63,858 nt of DNA from a virus (lineage: Duplodnaviria > Caudoviricetes): positions 1 to 63,858 of IMG/VR virus record IMGVR_UViG_3300045282_000203. One strand, given 5' to 3'. A program made the translations under genes and the position numbers. Under the pieces are notes generated by a model that had not been told where the DNA came from, searched no databases, and was given only the letters and a program-made list of their open reading frames with translations. Within the stretch, counting starts at the first letter, position 1. Every line of letters begins with the position of its first letter. Positions 5,590 to 62,184 of this stretch are shown here, piece by piece.

Positions 5590-5789
5590 GTCTTCTCCTT
5601 GTGGTAGTGGAGGTTGAAGTGCTTGCTGCCGTAGCGGACGAGTGCCTCGAACACGTGACGCTCGAGGTAGACAGTGTCGGTGGGGTGTTCAAGATCATTG
5701 GCTCGCAGCTCGATCTGCCCGTTCACGAAGACGGCGTAGAGGGCATTACCGAGGTACTCGGGGTGAGAGGACTCATTGACGCTCATCAC
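5586..5789 (-). CDS. Hypothetical protein
   Basis: YLGNALYA..VYLE motif common in small phage proteins. Confidence 0.6.
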   Translation of the reverse strand: MMSVNESSHPEYLGNALYAVFVNGQIELRANDLEHPTDTVYLERHVFEALVRYGSKHFNLHYHKEKT

Positions 5790-6795: not shown

Positions 6796-6823
6796 GACTT
6801 CTCCTTGTGTTGGTGGAGGTGGG

Positions 6824-7782: not shown

Positions 7783-8088
7783 TCAGCTCCTCTTCTCGGT
7801 GGTGGTTCGCACAGGCTTCAGCAGCACCGTCTCGCAGTAGTCGAGAGCTTCGGGGAGGAACTTCTTCACGTCCTCGATGGAGCAGCAGGGCCAGGTGTAG
7901 AAGTCTTCTTGATCTGCGGCACCAGCAATGATGAGTGCTTGACCGCCGCCAAAGCTGATGCTGAGCTCCTTACTGATGACGAACTCGGGATCGGTGCAAT
8001 CATAGCGGTTTGCAGGTGTGTAGATGATAGGTGGCCCAACGGCGACGAGCAGGGTGAGCTGCAGGCTCTGCTTGTTGATCCTCATCAC
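7783..8088 (-). CDS. Hypothetical protein
   Basis: GGAGG RBS, coupled to the upstream gene. Confidence 0.55.
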   Translation of the reverse strand: MMRINKQSLQLTLLVAVGPPIIYTPANRYDCTDPEFVISKELSISFGGGQALIIAGAADQEDFYTWPCCSIEDVKKFLPEALDYCETVLLKPVRTTTEKRS

Positions 8089-8309
8089 TGCACCTCCATC
8101 ATAGACTCGATGAGACGCTGACGGCGCTGGTACTCTTCCTGGAGTTCCTTGAAGGAGAAGGTGATGGAGAAGATTGACTTCTCACCGGCAATGAGAAGAA
8201 CTGCCTGTCCGCGCGTTTCTGCATGCTTCATCAGGCTGAAGAGGATGACCTCGGTGGTAGCCTGCAGCCGCTCTTCTCGGGTGGGGTAGACTTTCGTTGT
8301 TTCCTTCAT
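8085..8309 (-). CDS. Hypothetical protein, first ORF downstream of the hammerhead ribozyme
   Basis: ATG at 8309 preceded by AAGGAG; the ORF-track extension to 8402 overlaps the ribozyme. Confidence 0.65.
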   Translation of the reverse strand: MKETTKVYPTREERLQATTEVILFSLMKHAETRGQAVLLIAGEKSIFSITFSFKELQEEYQRRQRLIESMMEVQ

Positions 8310-8337
8310 GGTGATTCTCCTTGTGGTGGTGGAGTGG

Positions 8338-8420
8338 AACGCGCTTGGCTCATCAGCACCGCGGAGCGCGTTGTTGGGTGCGGTGTACCTCTCCTGCCTC
8401 ACGACGGTAGAGGTTTCGCC
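8338..8420 (-). ncRNA. Type II hammerhead ribozyme with loop I / 3'-tail pseudoknot
   Basis: Minus strand: GGC GAAA CCUCU-accgucgugaggcagg-AGAGG UA^ CACCGC-acccaacAACGCGCUcc-GCGGUG CUGAUGA GCC a AGCGCGUU. All core nucleotides and stems I-III are present; predicted cut between 8386 and 8385. Confidence 0.92.
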
Positions 8421-8426
8421 TGTTCG

Positions 8427-8745
8427 TGGTAGCTTCGCCTCACGGCGTGCCGGTGATGTCGACTGTTCACGGGTGTGGGATATCTCGTCCCACTGTCGAG
8501 GTTCTTAGTTCAGCGGCCCGCCACCAGGTGTCCGCTTGAGATCTGCGAGTGAAGCGCGTAGGAGGTCACCATCACTCCCCATCGTCATCATCTCACATCT
8601 GATCACTTGTCAAAGTCCTGGTCGCTACCTTCGCTTGGCTCGCACGTCCGCGGGATCTCACCGCGATGCCCTCAAGCGTTGTCAGTATCTCCAAGATCCT
8701 GGGTGCCCTCGAGCCCGCCCAATCAAGCAGCCCACCGGCTACCAT
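8427..8745 (-). ncRNA. Putative large structured non-coding RNA (~320 nt) of unknown class
   Basis: 5' end UGGUAGC/CGGUG pairs with CACCG/GCUACCA at the 3' end; many nested complementary segments; no credible ORF; promoter directly upstream. Confidence 0.7.
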
Positions 8746-8750
8746 GGTCC

Positions 8751-8780
8751 ATTATAATACTGTGCAAAGAAGAATAGCAA
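8751..8780 (-). promoter_or_regulatory. Sigma70-like promoter
   Basis: TTGCTA-N18-TATAAT on the - strand in an AT-rich patch; predicted +1 near 8743-8745, the first nucleotides of the closing stem. Confidence 0.75.
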
Positions 8781-8794
8781 CTTTTGTTGAATAC

Positions 8795-8820
8795 CTAAGT
8801 GTTGAGGTTGTAACACTTAG
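8795..8820. promoter_or_regulatory. Inverted repeat upstream of the promoter (operator candidate)
   Basis: CTAAGTGTT-gaggttgt-AACACTTAG. Confidence 0.45.
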
Positions 8821-8986
8821 CGTGATAGCCTACTCGCAACTGGCTCTAGAAGGCCTACTTACAGGGCCTTGTCATCCTTGCCACACCGTGTGCAGGTCAT
8901 CGTGAAGGTGGGCGCCTGGTATGGGCTGATGTGCAGGTGCACTACGTAGTCCCAGCGATGTCCGAGGAAGAAGCAGATGATCCTCT

Positions 8987-11227: not shown

Positions 11228-11710
11228 TCACAGCTCATCGGCGGCTCCTTTCTTGGCTAGTAGGGTAGAGGCGATATTGTAGGCCGCGTTGATCTCACCC
11301 TGGCGTTTGACTTCACGCAAACCACCCTTCAACTCCACCACCCTCTCCAGCGCAGCGGACAGCTTCCGTTCACATGCAGTCAGATCGGCTTGCAAGGCAT
11401 CGCGGTCCTCTTCGAGCGCGTCAAGGTGGCGATTAGCTTTCTCTAGCTCCTGGGACTTGGCGAAGTGGGCGGATTGAGCTCGACCCGCAGCATCTCGGAA
11501 CATCGAGCCCTCGTCAATAGCATCGTCTAGGCATTTATGTAACCGTGCCACCTCAGCCTCCAGCGCATCGGCTCTGGCGATGAGGCTATCCCGCTCGGCT
11601 TCGAGGGCGGCGACATCAGGGTCTGTGCAGAATAGGTGGGAGCCTGAGGATAGCTCATCGCAAGTGGCGCTGTACCGCTTCAGCCTCGGGCGTGGGGTGG
11701 GGTCAGTCGG
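11228..11710 (-). CDS. Hypothetical coiled-coil protein
   Basis: MPTDPT start after GAGGAG; ends AKKGAADEL like its neighbour. Confidence 0.55.
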   Translation of the reverse strand, partial: PTDPTPRPRLKRYSATCDELSSGSHLFCTDPDVAALEAERDSLIARADALEAEVARLHKCLDDAIDEGSMFRDAAGRAQSAHFAKSQELEKANRHLDALEEDRDALQADLTACERKLSAALERVVELKGGLREVKRQGEINAAYNIASTLLAKKGAADEL

Positions 11711-12038
11711 CATGGGGAGACTCCTCAAGGGTCATCACAGCGATGATTACTTTCACGAGAAGCGGTTGTTTTCGGAGGAACCGGATCACAGATGCCGGGA
11801 CCCGCGCATCAAACCGCTTGAGATAGTCGACCGGGACGCCAAGGGCTTCCGCAATCTTGTCCAGCTTGTCCGTGTTTCGGCGGTCGTGCTCCAGGTCGCT
11901 CAGGAAGGGAGCAGAGACCGCCACCTTCTCAGCTAGACGCCGAAGCGTCATGCCCTTGAACTCCCGGAGCCTCCGTACGGCTTCGCCCAAGGTTTCGCAG
12001 CATAGAACAATGTCCGCTTCGGTTGGCCCGCTCATCAC
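11703..12038 (-). CDS. XRE-family helix-turn-helix regulator
   Basis: LGEAVRRLREFKGMTLRRLAEKVAVSAPFLSDLEHDRR..KIAEALGV. Confidence 0.85.
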   Translation of the reverse strand: MMSGPTEADIVLCCETLGEAVRRLREFKGMTLRRLAEKVAVSAPFLSDLEHDRRNTDKLDKIAEALGVPVDYLKRFDARVPASVIRFLRKQPLLVKVIIAVMTLEESPHAD

Positions 12039-21459: not shown

Positions 21460-22040
21460 GGCACAGCGAGTGGAGGAGGCTGGTGGAGGGGTGGAGAAAG
21501 GCGAGGGAGAGGAGAGGTGCCTAAGTGTTAGACTGGTCTTTTTTGAGGAGTGATGATGGAGAAGAGAAGAGAGGGGTGATGGGTAATGAGGGTGTCTCAC
21601 GAGGTCGCGAAAGAGATACGGGATACCAACGTGGAGATGATGAAGATGATGAAGCCCTGGTGGTGGGCCTGGCCGTGATGACTTTGCACTCTGCGACCCT
21701 GTAACTATGTACTCTGTATCTGCGTGGTGAACTATATATACTAATCATCCCTTTTACATAATACACCTCTCTATCTATTTTTTTCCTTTCTTTTCCTAAA
21801 TATTTATAGAATAAATAAATACAAAGATACAAATATGATTGAGCACCTGTAAGTACAGGCCTTCGGTCAGTATCCGATCGTCGAAAACGATGAGATACAT
21901 GAGATACAACCCGCTGCCCAAAGGTGACCGGAGCCCGATGGGTGCTAGACTTCTCACGTATCTCTTTGTGAGATCAGTTGTTCTAGCGGAGATGGAAGCG
22001 TTCCTCCCAGAGGCCCATATCAGATATACGATTCAACCTA
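21460..22040. other. Putative replication origin / divergent control region
   Basis: Non-coding, strongly purine-skewed stretch, very AT-rich core at ~21730-21840, repeated (A)GATAC motifs; lies between the divergent modules near the primase-helicase. Confidence 0.5.
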
Positions 22041-48037: not shown

Positions 48038-48400
48038 ATGGCCAATAAACCTGACCTCTCCTTGCTGCTCGTCGCACTCAACCGTGCCCGCATCCCCTTC
48101 CAGATCGTTTCCCTGGACGACGGAGATATCCACTTCCGCGTTCGCATCACCAACTCTGACGGTCTTATGCAGGAAGGGACCATCGGCGACGTCTACCTCG
48201 CTGGATCCTGGCTCTACACTGAAGCGGTGAAGGGCTGGCCAGATAAGGTGCTCGACTTCAGCCCTATCAGGTCTGAGCTAGTTCAATCAACTCCTGGTGA
48301 TGAGATGTGGCAGCAGGCCCCCGTGCTAGGAACACAGAATGACGGTTCTCCGGCTCTCACCACTACCCGCGTGGCACCTGATGCCGAGGTGCAACCGTGA
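48038..48400 (+). CDS. Hypothetical protein (possible fibre chaperone)
   Basis: Follows the fibre gene; GGAG RBS. Confidence 0.5.
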   Translation: MANKPDLSLLLVALNRARIPFQIVSLDDGDIHFRVRITNSDGLMQEGTIGDVYLAGSWLYTEAVKGWPDKVLDFSPIRSELVQSTPGDEMWQQAPVLGTQNDGSPALTTTRVAPDAEVQP

Positions 48401-59576: not shown

Positions 59577-61058
59577 TCAGGCTGCGCGCCTACGGTGCTT
59601 GGCGAGGTTGAGAAGTGCGGTGAAGAGCTTCTGCTGACCACCTTCTTTCTCAGTGAGCGTAGGCATCATCACAAGATCTTCGACGGTGTCACGCATGAGG
59701 AGACGGTGGATCATCGTGTGCTTCCTGGTATTGCCGGAGCGGATGACCCGGCTGTTGAACTGATCGTAGAGGTCCTGGTCCCACGTGGGTGTGTGCCAGC
59801 AGAGATCAGCCTCGCACCCCTGGAGGTTGAGACCGGTGCCGATGGACTGGGGATGACCGAACATCACTGGGACGTCGCCGGCGTTCCACTTGTCTTCTAC
59901 CTTGGTGTAGTCCTTGTCCTTTACGTCACTGATGAACACCGCCTTCGGGAACCTCTTCTTGAGACGATCGACGTCGTGGTGGAAGTCGTAAGCGACGAGA
60001 AGTGGGCGGTGCTGCATCTCATCAATGAGGTCCTCCAGGGCGTCGGTCTTCTGATCGTGGATGTTGATCCACTCTCGCTTCCGCATCTTCAGGTTGATGC
60101 TCAGAGTCTTCACCACCTCGGGGTCGAGGTAGATCCCACCTGAGCAGATCTGACGACACTTCACACTCTTGGCGCCAGCTGTCCCAGCCTTCACGAGATT
60201 GCCGTTGATCTCAGCGATCATGAGAGCTTCCATCTCCTCATAGATGCGACGGTAATCTTCATCGAAGTCGATGAGGATGTCGTTCTCGACCCGCTCGGGG
60301 AGGTCGATCTCTGAGCTCGGGACGTGCATCATGAGGTGGGAGAGCTTCTCATAGATGCGCTCCTCAGCGTCGAGCTTAGGCACGAGCTCGTAGGGCCCCA
60401 CCTGATCAAAGAACTCTCTCCGGAAGTACGTGATGTACTGGCCGAGAGCGTTACCCATGTCGAGGACGTAGGTCTCTCCGAAGAGATCTTCGAGACCGTT
60501 CGACCCCGCGCTGCCGGTGAGACCCCATCGTCGCCCGAAGGTGTGGAGGATCGTCTTGAGGGTCTTGAAGCGGAGTGAGGTAGTGTGCTTGAACTTCTGC
60601 AGCTCATCCACGACGAGAAGATCGAAGCCGAGCTTCTTGAAGGCGCGGACATCGACATCGACGTAGGACTTGTTCTTCGCATCCTTGGTGACGGTGGGAC
60701 CAAGAAGCCACTGCAGCCCCTCAGGGGTGATCGTGTAGATGTCCGCGTCGCGGCGCAATGCCTTCTCACGGTCCTTGCCGTGGAGGATCTCAACCTTGAG
60801 ATGCTTGAAGTCCTCCCACTTCGCCACCTCGCCCGGCCAGACCGCGTAGCACGGCCGCTTCGGAGCGATGACGAGGACCTTGTGAACGAGGCCCTGCTTC
60901 TTGAGGAGACTGATGGCGGCGAGGGTCGTGCTGGTCTTGCGGAGTCCCGGCTTGAACAGGAGTCCAGCGCAAGCGTGTGATAGGAGGAACTTCATTCCTC
61001 TCTTCTGGAACTTCGCGGGCTTCCACTTCTGGGGTGGCTTCTTGATCAGGTCATTCAT
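59577..61058 (-). CDS. SNF2-family helicase
   Basis: PGLRKT, LVIAP, VVDE, GLTGS, GTGLNLQ, Q...R..RSG. Confidence 0.9.
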   Translation of the reverse strand: MNDLIKKPPQKWKPAKFQKRGMKFLLSHACAGLLFKPGLRKTSTTLAAISLLKKQGLVHKVLVIAPKRPCYAVWPGEVAKWEDFKHLKVEILHGKDREKALRRDADIYTITPEGLQWLLGPTVTKDAKNKSYVDVDVRAFKKLGFDLLVVDELQKFKHTTSLRFKTLKTILHTFGRRWGLTGSAGSNGLEDLFGETYVLDMGNALGQYITYFRREFFDQVGPYELVPKLDAEERIYEKLSHLMMHVPSSEIDLPERVENDILIDFDEDYRRIYEEMEALMIAEINGNLVKAGTAGAKSVKCRQICSGGIYLDPEVVKTLSINLKMRKREWINIHDQKTDALEDLIDEMQHRPLLVAYDFHHDVDRLKKRFPKAVFISDVKDKDYTKVEDKWNAGDVPVMFGHPQSIGTGLNLQGCEADLCWHTPTWDQDLYDQFNSRVIRSGNTRKHTMIHRLLMRDTVEDLVMMPTLTEKEGGQQKLFTALLNLAKHRRRAA

Positions 61059-61536
61059 GAAATCTCCATCGACGTTTTGCAGATTCACTCATCTTTCTTT
61101 TTGTTGCATCAGAATGTTTCCGTCCCAGTCCAGCATTTCTCACCTTCTCCCGTGTTTCTAAGGAGAGTGTTGTCCCTAATCTAGCATTTCGGATTTTCTT
61201 CTTAGACTCTGTTGAATGTTTTCTTCCAAGCCACGTTTGTCTTATCTTCTCTCGCCCCTCTTTTGACAATCTCGATTTTAGTCGTCCCTTCTCTGAAGCA
61301 TCCCACATGTTATCTTTGCAAGTGCCGAGAAAGTGATGCTCATCTCTGATGCACCGTGGGTTATCACATGTATGACAGACGAAGATCTTACTTGAGGCAA
61401 TAGGTCCGTGACGCATCTGATAAAGACGACGCGAAACCCCATTTGCAGTTGTATCACATTGAGCCGGACGGACTAAGCATTTGCCCTCCCAATGAGATTC
61501 ATTTTCGTAATCCTGAATTGTTTTTCTTCGTCCCAT
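61051..61536 (-). CDS. HNH homing endonuclease with NUMOD3-like repeats
   Basis: VCHTCDNPRC...H..LGT..DNM.D..KGR; GRKHS.E.K.KI repeats; low GC. Confidence 0.88.
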   Translation of the reverse strand: MGRRKTIQDYENESHWEGKCLVRPAQCDTTANGVSRRLYQMRHGPIASSKIFVCHTCDNPRCIRDEHHFLGTCKDNMWDASEKGRLKSRLSKEGREKIRQTWLGRKHSTESKKKIRNARLGTTLSLETREKVRNAGLGRKHSDATKRKMSESAKRRWRFHE

Positions 61537-61843
61537 TTGCCTCCTCCCATTTTTGCTTAATCAGTTGTTTACCAATCAACGTGTCATTGATGACATGCAC
61601 ATCATATCCAAGAGATTTTAATTGATCATGAGTTGCTGCTTGAAGCGCAGAAAGTTTTCCAATCTCGCTCTTAAACTCAATGAGAAGTGGTAAGCCGCCG
61701 GGGATCCAAATAATAAAATCTGGGAGGCCCGATACTTGGAAAACTGAGCCCGAACTAAGTTTATCGCATCGTATTCCTTGCTTCTTCGCCCACCCGATGA
61801 CCGAGGACTGGATGCTCTTCTCGAGGTTCCTGGATACTCTCAT
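61499..61843 (-). CDS. VRR-NUC nuclease
   Basis: EKSIQ, GLPD, IEFK..GKLSALQ, LG..V.V. Confidence 0.88.
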   Translation of the reverse strand: MRVSRNLEKSIQSSVIGWAKKQGIRCDKLSSGSVFQVSGLPDFIIWIPGGLPLLIEFKSEIGKLSALQAATHDQLKSLGYDVHVINDTLIGKQLIKQKWEEANGTKKNNSGLRK

Positions 61844-62184
61844 GCCACCCTCCACCAACGATGATGAGTGGCGTCATCTGAGAGACGAGATACAAACCTC
61901 CACTCTTTCATGATTGAGTGATTGCGTTGCCAGTTGCGCAGAGCGGTAAAGACTCGATCACGGCTTATTATGTGAGTACTGCTGCACGGGTCGAGTGTTG
62001 GGACAGCAAAACTGTCGCCAACCTCCATCAGGATGAAAGGATACTTTAACTCTCGTGATTCATGATTATGAACCGTTTTCACTCTGGCCCAGACAGAGAT
62101 GTTCTTCTCGATCTTGTAGACGAAATCTTCCTTGGTCATCTTATCTACATCATACATGATCATCTCCTCAGTCAGTACTGACAT
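61840..62184 (-). CDS. Hypothetical protein (start uncertain)
   Basis: KYPF..MEVGDSF motif; low GC. Confidence 0.6.
   Translation of the reverse strand: MSVLTEEMIMYDVDKMTKEDFVYKIEKNISVWARVKTVHNHESRELKYPFILMEVGDSFAVPTLDPCSSTHIISRDRVFTALRNWQRNHSIMKEWRFVSRLSDDATHHRWWRVA

What the first reader, a model, noticed from the sequence alone, without database searches (positions are those of the whole stretch)
8427..8780. Promoter-driven ~320-nt highly structured non-coding RNA of unknown class, released by the ribozyme
Seen: TTGCTA-N18-TATAAT puts +1 at about 8743-8745, where a closing stem starts. UGGUAGC (8744-8738) pairs with GCUACCA (8433-8427), and CGGUG (8737-8733) pairs with CACCG (8455-8451), around a CGCC-GUGA-GGCG GNRA hairpin. 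Nested inside are UCGAGG/CCUCGA (8712-07 with 8501-8496), CCAGG/CCUGG (8702-8698 with 8528-24), CGCUUGAG/CUCAAGCG (8678-71 with 8540-33), UGCGAG/CUCGCA, AAGCG/CGCUU, GUAG/CUAC and ACCA/UGGU. Side hairpins lie at 8649-8665 and 8475-8493. The rod ends in a ~47-nt purine/GAU-rich loop containing UUGACA. There is no credible ORF, and I see no tRNA, tmRNA, RNase P or group I/II intron hallmarks. Inference: a discrete, abundant early phage RNA matured by its own ribozyme. Possible roles are an RNAP/sigma decoy (6S-like rod), a protein sponge or an anti-defence RNA. This is my best candidate for a previously undescribed system in the genome.
Basis: partly seen in the sequence, partly recalled or inferred. 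Interest (0 to 1): 0.9.

Follow-up and report, generated by a model that had tools for sequence, protein, structure and literature searches.

The report
Hammerhead-cut non-coding phage leader RNA
A soil phage has a promoter followed by about 360 bases of non-coding RNA that a hammerhead ribozyme probably cuts off just ahead of the next gene; the ribozyme is ordinary for phages, and it cannot yet be told whether the cut-off RNA does anything of its own.

Summary
The sequence features are real. On the minus strand there is a sigma70-type promoter (8780-8751) and about 320 nt with no coding signal whose two ends pair. A type II hammerhead follows (8421-8343), with predicted cut A8386|C8385, 76 nt before the next ATG. 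The hammerhead scores below Rfam's cut-off (25.5 vs 37 bits). It nevertheless has the full core, all three stems, and an 8-bp loop I/3'-tail pseudoknot that 1 of 5000 tail shuffles reaches.

"Highly structured" is not beyond background. Folding z-scores run from -1.1 to -2.0, and 30% of same-length windows in this genome fold as stably.

No homologue of the RNA, or of either flanking gene, turned up in any collection, so covariation cannot be tested.

In 93 counted phage type II hammerheads the ribozyme usually sits right after a gene's stop (median 5 nt). Some sit behind promoters after short leaders, or inside tRNA arrays.

Best reading: a promoter-proximal non-coding leader removed by an ordinary phage hammerhead. 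An independent function for the released 360-nt RNA is possible but unsupported. Interest is modest.

The parts
8795..8820 (.). Perfect 9-bp palindrome CTAAGTGTT-N8-AACACTTAG. It lies between the stop of the upstream 43-aa gene (8859) and the -35 box. It is a candidate operator, or a U-tract-less hairpin ending the upstream transcript.
   Evidence: the only inverted repeat found in 8300-8900. (1 match in the window; 0 of 100 shuffles give any). (as RNA -10.6 kcal/mol, z -4.28, 0 of 200 shuffles as stable).
8751..8780 (-). Sigma70-type promoter TTGCTA-18-TATAAT, with predicted +1 at about 8745.
   Evidence: It is the only >=10/12 site with >=5/6 in the -10 box in the genome, though the null expects about 1. 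It lies in a 30% GC patch.
8386..8745 (-). Predicted 5' cleavage product (~360 nt). It comprises the non-coding leader, the 5' strand of hammerhead stem II, GAAA and the stem III hairpin, and would end in a 2',3'-cyclic phosphate.
   Evidence: Inferred from the promoter position and the hammerhead cleavage site. Non-coding.
8427..8744 (-). Leader body. Its ends pair through P1 (8744-8738 with 8433-8427), P2 (8737-8733 with 8455-8451) and P3 (8712-8707 with 8501-8496). It has hairpins at 8665-8649, 8493-8475 and 8447-8436, and a G/A-rich centre at about 8618-8570.
8343..8421 (-). Candidate type II hammerhead ribozyme. It has CGAAA (8418-8414), a stem III hairpin, the cleavage triplet GUA (8388-8386), stem I CACCGC/GCGGUG (8385-8380 / 8362-8357) with a 17-nt loop, CUGAUGA (8356-8350), and a 3-bp open stem II GGC/GCC.
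   Evidence: 25.5 bits, all 66 model positions aligned. (on its own the MFE is the three-way junction). (sequence).
8385..8386 (-). Predicted self-cleavage site, between A8386 and C8385.
   Evidence: Read from the sequence and the Rfam alignment, using the established hammerhead rule that the cut falls 3' of the NUH triplet.
8338..8372 (-). Pseudoknot strands: loop I AACGCGCU (8372-8365) pairs with the 3' tail AGCGCGUU (8345-8338), 8 bp.
   Evidence: 1 of 5000 tail shuffles reaches 8 bp. It is named as a class hallmark in passages of PMC3088659.
8307..8322 (-). Shine-Dalgarno AAGGAG (8322-8317) and the ATG (8309-8307) of the first downstream gene. The ATG is 76 nt after the cut.
8085..8309 (-). 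First gene of the unit (74 aa, orphan).
   Evidence: Positive codon score. The only match was the 105-aa GTG-start form of the same window ORF (100% identity, same 63,858-bp contig); nothing else among 5.8 billion proteins. No Pfam or PHROG family.

Best explanation
The finding is the promoter and long non-coding 5' leader of a phage transcription unit on the minus strand, ended by an ordinary phage type II hammerhead. Host RNA polymerase would start at about 8745. The first ~320 nt fold back so that the 5' end pairs with the sequence just before the ribozyme (P1-P3). The hammerhead (8421-8343) then folds, stabilised by an 8-bp loop I/tail pseudoknot, and cuts between A8386 and C8385. That separates a ~360-nt leader RNA (2',3'-cyclic phosphate end) from an mRNA that begins with a 5'-OH and the stem I hairpin, 76 nt before the ATG of the first gene. 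The most likely job of the ribozyme is to give the downstream mRNA a defined, leader-free 5' end. The self-closed leader keeps out of the ribozyme's fold and may carry cis-regulatory signals. Shown: the sequence features. Inferred: promoter use, cleavage, and the fates of the two products.
For: Promoter: in a 30% GC patch, with a unique perfect palindrome just upstream.

Non-coding.

Hammerhead: all 66 Rfam model positions align, with the CUGAUGA and GAAA cores intact. E is 0.008 for 701 nt and 0.73 for the whole window. Those E-values are multiplied by 4227 families; my own division gives about 1.7e-4 for this one family. On its own the ribozyme's MFE is the canonical three-way junction. The 8-bp loop I/tail pseudoknot is reached by 1 of 5000 shuffles, and passages of PMC3088659 name it as typical of type II hammerheads.

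A sub-threshold Rfam score is common for such phage hammerheads: only 3 of 12 pattern-matching ones in 9 loci reach the cut-off.

Context is typical. At least 119 IMG/VR stretches carry the same core pattern, and many are followed shortly by an SD and a start codon. Promoter-proximal cases exist: L123 has a promoter-like site 75 nt upstream, and L060 has a first hammerhead about 105 nt after a promoter-like site. PMC3088659 also reports a halovirus hammerhead 13 nt before the first early ORF, with the transcript's 5' end mapped within 3 nt of the cleavage site.

End closure of the leader: 1 of 400 shuffles.
Against: The promoter count (1) equals the Markov expectation of 0.97.

The hammerhead is below Rfam's gathering score, 25.5 vs 37 bits.

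No expression data exist, and cleavage is untested.

A 330-nt leader that is merely discarded is odd in a compact phage. Among 93 counted phage hammerheads the median distance from the upstream ORF's stop is 5 nt, and only 9.7% have gaps of 400 nt or more. The length therefore hints at some function that this explanation does not name.

In the 446-nt fold the 5' AUGGU pairs with ACCAU at the start codon instead of forming the start of P1. The predicted hammerhead region is also rearranged there, because the pseudoknot helix replaces stem I. The folding order therefore matters.
Confidence: 0.55

Rival explanations
1. The ~360-nt released RNA is itself the product: a stable, trans-acting structured ncRNA of a new class (decoy, sponge, anti-defence or regulator). 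It is expressed from the strongest host-type promoter of the phage and matured at its 3' end by the hammerhead.
For: It is 320 nt of non-coding sequence kept in a genome where nearly all long gaps turned out to be coding. The 5' end is paired from nt 2 and the 3' end carries a hairpin, which would favour stability (the stability is inference). End closure is reached by 1 of 400 shuffles. Three hairpins have GNRA-type loops: GUGA, and GAGA within two 7-nt loops. GAUG is enriched, 5 observed vs 1.4 expected, p about 0.012, tested post hoc. There is precedent for structured RNAs lying directly upstream of phage type II hammerheads: tRNAs in L042.
Against: Thermodynamic stability and well-definedness are not exceptional. 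Two of the five located helices are disfavoured. There is no homologue anywhere, so no covariation evidence. GAGAU x4 is not significant: 1050 of 2000 shuffles have some 5-mer four times. There is no GGA enrichment and no strong complementarity to other parts of the genome (best 14 nt, E 0.11).
Confidence: 0.25
2. Evolutionary debris. The usual phage arrangement is gene, then hammerhead, then gene. Here the gene between the promoter and the ribozyme has decayed, or foreign sequence was inserted, and the leader has no function.
For: The typical hammerhead sits 5 nt after a stop codon. L043/L088 show promoter, small gene, hammerhead, gene. The fold is not exceptional. A 50-aa ORF starts at the predicted +1.
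Against: No residual codon signal appears in any 96-nt window or frame. Phage genomes usually lose dead sequence. The ends of the leader pair more than shuffles do.
Confidence: 0.12
3. A DNA-level element: a replication origin primed by transcription from the promoter, or a regulatory region. The RNA fold would be incidental.
For: The element lies inside the replication and nucleotide-metabolism module: ligase, ThyX, an exonuclease, and a 680-aa DUF3854/DUF5906 protein that I read as a primase-helicase (my inference). It has an AT-rich patch and a palindrome next to a promoter. The transcript centre is G/A-rich, which would favour an RNA-DNA hybrid (inference).
Against: No iteron families were found, only three two-copy repeats of 10-11 nt. 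The 4 GATC sites in 160 nt are unremarkable in a genome with 7.6 GATC per kb. The GC-skew profile shows no switch here.
Confidence: 0.05
4. A leaderless small protein: the 50-aa ORF 8745-8593, whose AUG is at the predicted +1.
For: The ATG lies exactly 6 nt after the -10 box.
Against: The codon score is -0.41 and GC3 is 0.65 against 0.79 in genes. The neighbouring genes use AAGGAG Shine-Dalgarno sites.
Confidence: 0.03

Closest known systems
Type II hammerhead ribozymes of bacteria and phages (Rfam RF02276; Perreault et al. 2011, PMC3088659, passages read)
   Same: Same core, the three-stem layout with stem II open, the loop I/3'-tail pseudoknot, and a position in a phage intergenic spacer on the gene strand shortly before an RBS.
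   Different: It scores below Rfam's cut-off because of a longer stem III and a 17-nt loop I. It sits about 330 nt after a promoter in non-coding sequence, not right after a stop codon (median 5 nt among 93 counted).
HHphage of haloviruses HF1/HF2 (as described in PMC3088659)
   Same: A hammerhead just upstream of the first ORF of a polycistronic phage transcript. The mapped 5' end there coincides with the cleavage site, so the ribozyme sets the mRNA's 5' end.
   Different: That one is an archaeal virus with a variant hammerhead, 13 nt before the start codon. No long structured leader is described in the passages I read.
Hammerheads punctuating phage tRNA arrays (locus L042, an IMG/VR contig)
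   Same: Structured non-coding RNAs lie directly upstream of a type II hammerhead (a tRNA ends 3 nt before it). 'ncRNA followed by a hammerhead' is therefore an existing phage layout.
   Different: There the RNAs are tRNAs. Here ARAGORN and Rfam find no tRNA or any known family.
RAGATH RNAs: structured RNA motifs found near hammerhead/twister-associated genes (meaning of the name recalled; RAGATH-16 seen 1.1 kb from a hammerhead in L023)
   Same: Non-coding structured candidates in phage-like regions close to self-cleaving ribozymes.
   Different: No RAGATH or other Rfam model matches the leader, even at E <= 10. RAGATH motifs are defined by covariation among many copies, whereas this RNA is a singleton.
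Leader-derived processed regulatory RNAs of P1/P7 (c4) and P4 (CI) (recalled, not from a call)
   Same: The concept matches: a small RNA cut out of the leader of an operon transcript that then acts as a regulator.
   Different: Those are about 70-80 nt, are cut by host RNase P, and have known complementary target sites. Here the cut is by a ribozyme, the RNA is 360 nt, and no target complementarity above chance was seen.
6S RNA
   Same: A long, largely paired RNA expressed from a strong promoter.
   Different: No Rfam 6S model matches. The predicted fold is multibranched with a terminal G/A-rich loop, not a rod with a central open-promoter-like bubble (the 6S architecture is recalled).

Membership tests
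Type II hammerhead ribozyme | Conserved catalytic core: CUGAUGA box and GAAA box, with the G10.1-C11.1 pair closing stem II. | tested here: met
   CUGAUGA-G at 8356-8349 and C-GAAA at 8418-8414, aligned to the Rfam consensus.
Type II hammerhead ribozyme | Three helices around the core. [quoted passage not shown] | tested here: met
   The Rfam alignment covers model positions 1-66. The MFE of 8425-8343 alone gives a 3-bp stem II, a stem III hairpin and a 6-bp stem I.
Type II hammerhead ribozyme | Cleavage triplet NUH between stems III and I. | tested here: met
   GUA at 8388-8386 followed by C8385, which opens stem I. The NUH rule comes from established hammerhead knowledge.
Type II hammerhead ribozyme | Tertiary contact: a pseudoknot of 4 bp or more between loop I and the nucleotides just 3' of stem II (present in the majority of type II members, per PMC3088659). 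| tested here: met
   8 bp, 8372-8365 with 8345-8338. It is reached by 1 of 5000 tail shuffles. Among 127 distinct phage examples, 44% have 5 nt or more against 19% with shuffled tails.
Type II hammerhead ribozyme | Rfam curated gathering score of 37 bits. This is a database threshold, not a structural feature. | tested here: not met
   25.5 bits. For calibration, only 3 of 12 pattern-matching phage hammerheads in 9 loci reach it. For this reason I call it a candidate.
Type II hammerhead ribozyme | Self-cleavage of the transcript. | not testable with these tools
   Needs in vitro transcription and mapping of the products.
6S RNA | Match to 6S covariance models, and a rod with a central asymmetric bubble. 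| tested here: not met
   No Rfam match at E <= 10. The predicted fold is multibranched with a terminal loop.
tRNA / tmRNA / RNase P / group I-II introns / other self-cleaving ribozymes / RAGATH and drum motifs | Match to the family's model. | tested here: not met
   ARAGORN finds 0 genes. Rfam finds nothing at gathering score. In the leader at E <= 10 there are only two noise snoRNA hits.
Conserved structured ncRNA class (any) | Homologues with compensatory base changes in the proposed helices. | not testable with these tools
   No homologue was found. The flanking proteins matched only this window's own ORFs.

The most novel reading that the evidence does not exclude
The 360-nt RNA is the founding member of a new kind of phage non-coding RNA. 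It would be made in quantity from the phage's best host-type promoter. Its ends would be protected by a 5'-terminal helix and by the hammerhead's stem III hairpin with a cyclic phosphate, and it would act in trans on a host or phage protein. A refinement: the leader carries copies of both pseudoknot strands (GAGCCAAGCG at 8641-8632 and ACGCGCU at 8559-8553). It could therefore hold the ribozyme in an off-state until something binds it, making this a regulated hammerhead.
Probability: 0.15. Interest if true: 0.7.

Novelty: new variant of a known kind. Interest (0 to 1): 0.3.

Why it matters
What hammerheads do in phages is still largely open. A case where a single promoter, a long non-coding leader, a ribozyme and the first gene lie in one 470-nt cassette is a compact object for bench tests. 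It would allow a test of whether these ribozymes serve to trim mRNA 5' ends, to release RNAs, or to switch expression. If the released RNA proved functional it would be a new phage RNA. If not, the locus is one more phage hammerhead with an unusually long leader.

Tried and rejected
HOMOLOGUE SEARCHES, all blank for the RNA.
- blastn (distant mode) of 8300-8870 against 50,697 phage records: no match.
- blastn (distant mode) of 8330-8790 against 72,556 plasmids: no match.
- Close-relative scans of IMG/VR with the downstream 74-aa protein, the upstream 168-aa protein, the ligase and the 680-aa DUF3854/DUF5906 protein: none.
- The 74-aa and 168-aa proteins against 5.8 billion proteins: each matched only its own ORF in this window.
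- TerL relatives in IMG/VR are at most 62% identical and are fragments (17 loci). Five of those records hold no Hammerhead_II at E <= 1.
- TerL in 185,579 species genomes: none.
- nhmmer of the 319-nt leader against 136 fetched loci, L002-L137 (119 of them, L019-L137, hammerhead-bearing IMG/VR stretches): no hit at E <= 10.
- A second, narrower hammerhead pattern gave 5 loci with 7 hammerheads, none with a related upstream region.
- A 20-mer from the central loop in metagenome contigs gave 26 stretches. All are an unrelated, recurrent G+C-rich context. The nhmmer hits (E 0.054 and 1.3) are confined to the GAT-rich stretch.
- A 20-mer from hairpin A in genome contigs gave one 26-nt chance match in a Planctomycetaceae MAG.
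- A 19-mer from hairpin B in IMG/VR: none.

SEQUENCING RUNS. No RNA holder is listed. The one DNA run listed may be the source of the window. Laying it showed the source contig only, with no variants.

MOTIF IDEAS REJECTED.
- GAGAU x4: 1050 of 2000 shuffles have some 5-mer four times.
- CsrA-type GGA sites: 7 observed vs 8.3 expected.
- GATC cluster: the genome has 7.6 per kb.
- Iterons: none.
- Antisense targets in the genome: best 14 nt, E 0.11.
- The weak C/D-box snoRNA hits and the HOTTIP_1 hit at 48051-48101 (fold z -0.09) are noise.

PSEUDOGENE IDEA. No residual coding signal.

LITERATURE. Two full-text searches listed no paper on a long promoter-proximal leader RNA released by a phage hammerhead. 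That is a narrow search and is not proof of absence. I read passages of PMC3088659, PMC5737381 and PMC13725137, and search listings only for the rest. No supplementary files were opened. The alignments and gene-context files of PMC3088659 might show similar leaders.

Full report
WHAT THE WINDOW IS. The window is a complete 63,858-bp IMG/VR virus record. It was seen in one soil-metagenome run that may be its own source. Genes from about 21.4 kb down to 1 are on the minus strand. They form a replication and nucleotide-metabolism module: a 680-aa DUF3854/DUF5906 protein (which I read as a primase-helicase), an Rv2179c-like exonuclease, ThyX, DUF1643, an XRE-type regulator and an ATP-dependent DNA ligase. 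The structural genes run on the plus strand from 22 kb; the closest cultured relatives have 42% identical TerL. The finding lies on the minus strand in a 549-nt gap. The gap runs from the stop of a 43-aa gene (8859; weak PHROG match) to the ATG of a 74-aa orphan gene (8309).

CHECKING THE OBSERVATION. It is the only site of that quality on either strand of the genome. Simulated genomes give 0.97 such sites on average, so the match alone proves nothing. Its context does add weight. It sits in a 30% GC patch, inside a non-coding gap, on the gene strand. It lies just downstream of a perfect 9-bp palindrome (8795-8820) that no shuffle reproduces.

All five helices given with coordinates are perfectly complementary, and the named hairpins exist. 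The stretch is truly non-coding. All six frames score negative on a codon model trained on 25 long ORFs, GC3 is about 0.6 against 0.79 in genes, and no 96-nt window between 8862 and about 8430 shows a coding signal. There is no tRNA or tmRNA and no Rfam family.

IS IT 'HIGHLY STRUCTURED'? Not beyond background.
- Folding-energy z-scores are -1.42 (331 nt; 8 of 100 shuffles as good), -2.04 (320 nt with exact ends; 3% of 400) and -1.06 (446 nt including the ribozyme and start codon; 15 of 100).
- Of 848 windows of the same length in this genome, 30% fold at least as stably, or 18% after correcting for GC.
- Positional entropy is matched by 15% of 150 shuffles.
- In the partition function P1, P2 and P3 are strongly favoured. 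CCAGG/CCUGG (0.03) and CGCUUGAG/CUCAAGCG (0.11) are not.
- The one feature above chance is the closure of the two ends: 16 pairs between the first 20 and last 35 nt, reached by 1 of 400 shuffles. I chose those window sizes after seeing the fold. With 15 x 15 nt, 18% of shuffles do as well.

THE RIBOZYME. Rfam's Hammerhead_II model aligns over all 66 positions at 8421-8343 with 25.5 bits, below the 37-bit cut-off. E is 0.008 in 701 nt and 0.73 in the whole window. Those E-values are multiplied by 4227 families; my own division gives about 1.7e-4 for this one family. Reading the sequence gives the following:
- C-GAAA and CUGAUGA-G are intact.
- Stem II is GGC/GCC.
- Stem III is a long hairpin.
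- The cleavage triplet is GUA.
- Stem I is CACCGC/GCGGUG, with a 17-nt loop.

On its own the element's minimum-energy fold is exactly this three-way junction. The covariance model cannot score one further feature: loop I (AACGCGCU, 8372-8365) pairs over 8 bp with the tail just after stem II (AGCGCGUU, 8345-8338). Only 1 of 5000 shuffled tails does this. Perreault et al. 2011 describe precisely this pseudoknot as typical of type II hammerheads (PMC3088659, passages). A score below the Rfam cut-off is common for phage examples: in nine IMG/VR loci only 3 of 12 pattern-matching hammerheads reach it. I regard the hammerhead as very probably real. The predicted cut is between A8386 and C8385.

WHAT PHAGE HAMMERHEADS OF THIS TYPE USUALLY LOOK LIKE. 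I left out 38 matches that lay inside an ORF of 70 aa or more and 5 that had no upstream ORF in the locus. Among the 93 counted, the median distance from the stop of the upstream ORF to the hammerhead is 5 nt. The 75th percentile is 49 nt, and 9.7% have 400 nt or more. The window scores 451 nt by the same measure. Many are followed shortly by an SD and a start codon.

Among 126 hammerheads with 600 nt of upstream sequence, 6 promoter-like sites were found at 5 hammerheads (two of which are identical sequences). In L123 a promoter-like site lies 75 nt upstream. In L060 a first hammerhead follows a promoter-like site by about 105 nt. In L043/L088 the order is promoter, small gene, hammerhead, gene. 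In L042 the 'gap' upstream of a hammerhead is a tRNA array, with a tRNA ending 3 nt before the ribozyme. Hammerheads that trim leaders, or that follow structured RNAs, are therefore an existing phage layout. The paper also reports a halovirus hammerhead 13 nt before the first early ORF, with the mapped transcript end at the cleavage site. What is unusual here is the length of the non-coding leader.

HOMOLOGUES. Searches of phage and plasmid records by DNA, of IMG/VR with four neighbouring proteins, and of 5.8 billion proteins with both flanking genes found no relatives; each flanking-gene search matched only its own ORF in this window. Searches of species genomes with TerL were also blank, as were exact-pattern scans with three leader oligomers and nhmmer against all 136 fetched loci. 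Where anything appeared, it was a chance match. The only run holding the sequence shows no variants.

HOW IT MOST LIKELY WORKS. Transcription from the promoter yields a leader whose 5' end pairs with the sequence just before the ribozyme. This keeps the leader to itself and leaves the hammerhead free to fold. Cleavage then gives an mRNA with a 5'-OH and the stem I hairpin, 76 nt upstream of the ATG, and a 360-nt leader RNA. These steps are inferred from sequence and none is shown.

I put 0.55 on this 'leader removed by an ordinary phage hammerhead' reading.

The main argument for an independent function is economy: 320 nt of non-coding sequence in a compact genome, with protected ends. The arguments against are the unexceptional fold statistics and the complete lack of relatives.

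A speculative refinement concerns regulation of the ribozyme. The leader contains a 10-nt copy of the ribozyme's GAGCCAAGCG (8641-8632 vs 8351-8342) and a 7-nt copy of loop I's ACGCGCU (8559-8553). It could therefore compete for the pseudoknot strands and delay cleavage. By my rough estimate repeats of that size are near chance (about 0.1 expected for the 10-mer, several for 7-mers). In the uncleaved 446-nt fold the 5' AUGGU pairs with ACCAU at the start codon, which cleavage would relieve. That is a 5-bp prediction only.

VERDICT. The ribozyme is a new member of a well-known phage family in a recognisable role. The long self-closing leader is an unusual variant of that arrangement, and its independent function is unproven. 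Interest 0.3.

Noticed in passing
window 8795-8820: A perfect palindrome CTAAGTGTT-N8-AACACTTAG lies just upstream of the -35 box. It is unique in the genome, and 0 of 100 shuffles give a match. It is a candidate operator for the promoter, or a hairpin ending the upstream transcript (as RNA z -4.28).
   Followed up: partly
window 21521-21529: A third exact copy of the half-site AACACTTAG lies in the 724-nt divergent intergenic region between the two gene arms. No palindromic partner is nearby. One regulator might bind both control regions; an XRE-type protein is encoded at 11703-12038. Counting 1-mismatch sites, 5 matches against 5.2 expected is not an enrichment.
   Followed up: partly
window 8315-8334, 6799-6818, 5593-5612: A 20-nt stretch containing the Shine-Dalgarno site (…CCACAAGGAGAAUCACC…) recurs at 95% identity upstream of three minus-strand genes: the 74-aa gene, the ligase, and a 71-aa gene. 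This is a shared translation-initiation region.
   Followed up: no
window 61051-61858: A low-GC patch (0.52 against about 0.60) is coding, not a gap. It holds an HNH/NUMOD3 homing-endonuclease-like gene (61051-61536) and a VRR-NUC nuclease gene (61499-61858). It is probably a recently acquired mobile cassette.
   Followed up: partly
L042 2721-4705 (IMG/VR contig): A phage tRNA array has two type II hammerheads (51 bits each) inserted between tRNAs. One tRNA ends 3 nt before a ribozyme.
   Followed up: partly
L023 1983-2055: A RAGATH-16 RNA (88.9 bits) lies 1.1 kb upstream of a type II hammerhead. That hammerhead has an 802-nt ORF-poor stretch before it.
   Followed up: no
L103, L131, L023, L044 (IMG/VR contigs): Other type II hammerheads are preceded by 500-800 nt without a same-strand ORF of 70 aa or more, and with no Rfam family in the gap. 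Long non-coding stretches before phage hammerheads may be a recurrent but heterogeneous feature.
   Followed up: partly
window 8641-8632 / 8351-8342 and 8559-8553 / 8371-8365: The leader carries copies of both strands of the ribozyme's pseudoknot region (GAGCCAAGCG and ACGCGCU). Alternative pairings that would disable the hammerhead can therefore be drawn. By my rough estimate the repeats are near chance in size.
   Followed up: partly
window 8745-8741 with 8313-8309: In the fold of the uncleaved 446-nt transcript, the 5' AUGGU pairs with ACCAU overlapping the start codon of the first gene. This is a 5-bp prediction only.
   Followed up: no
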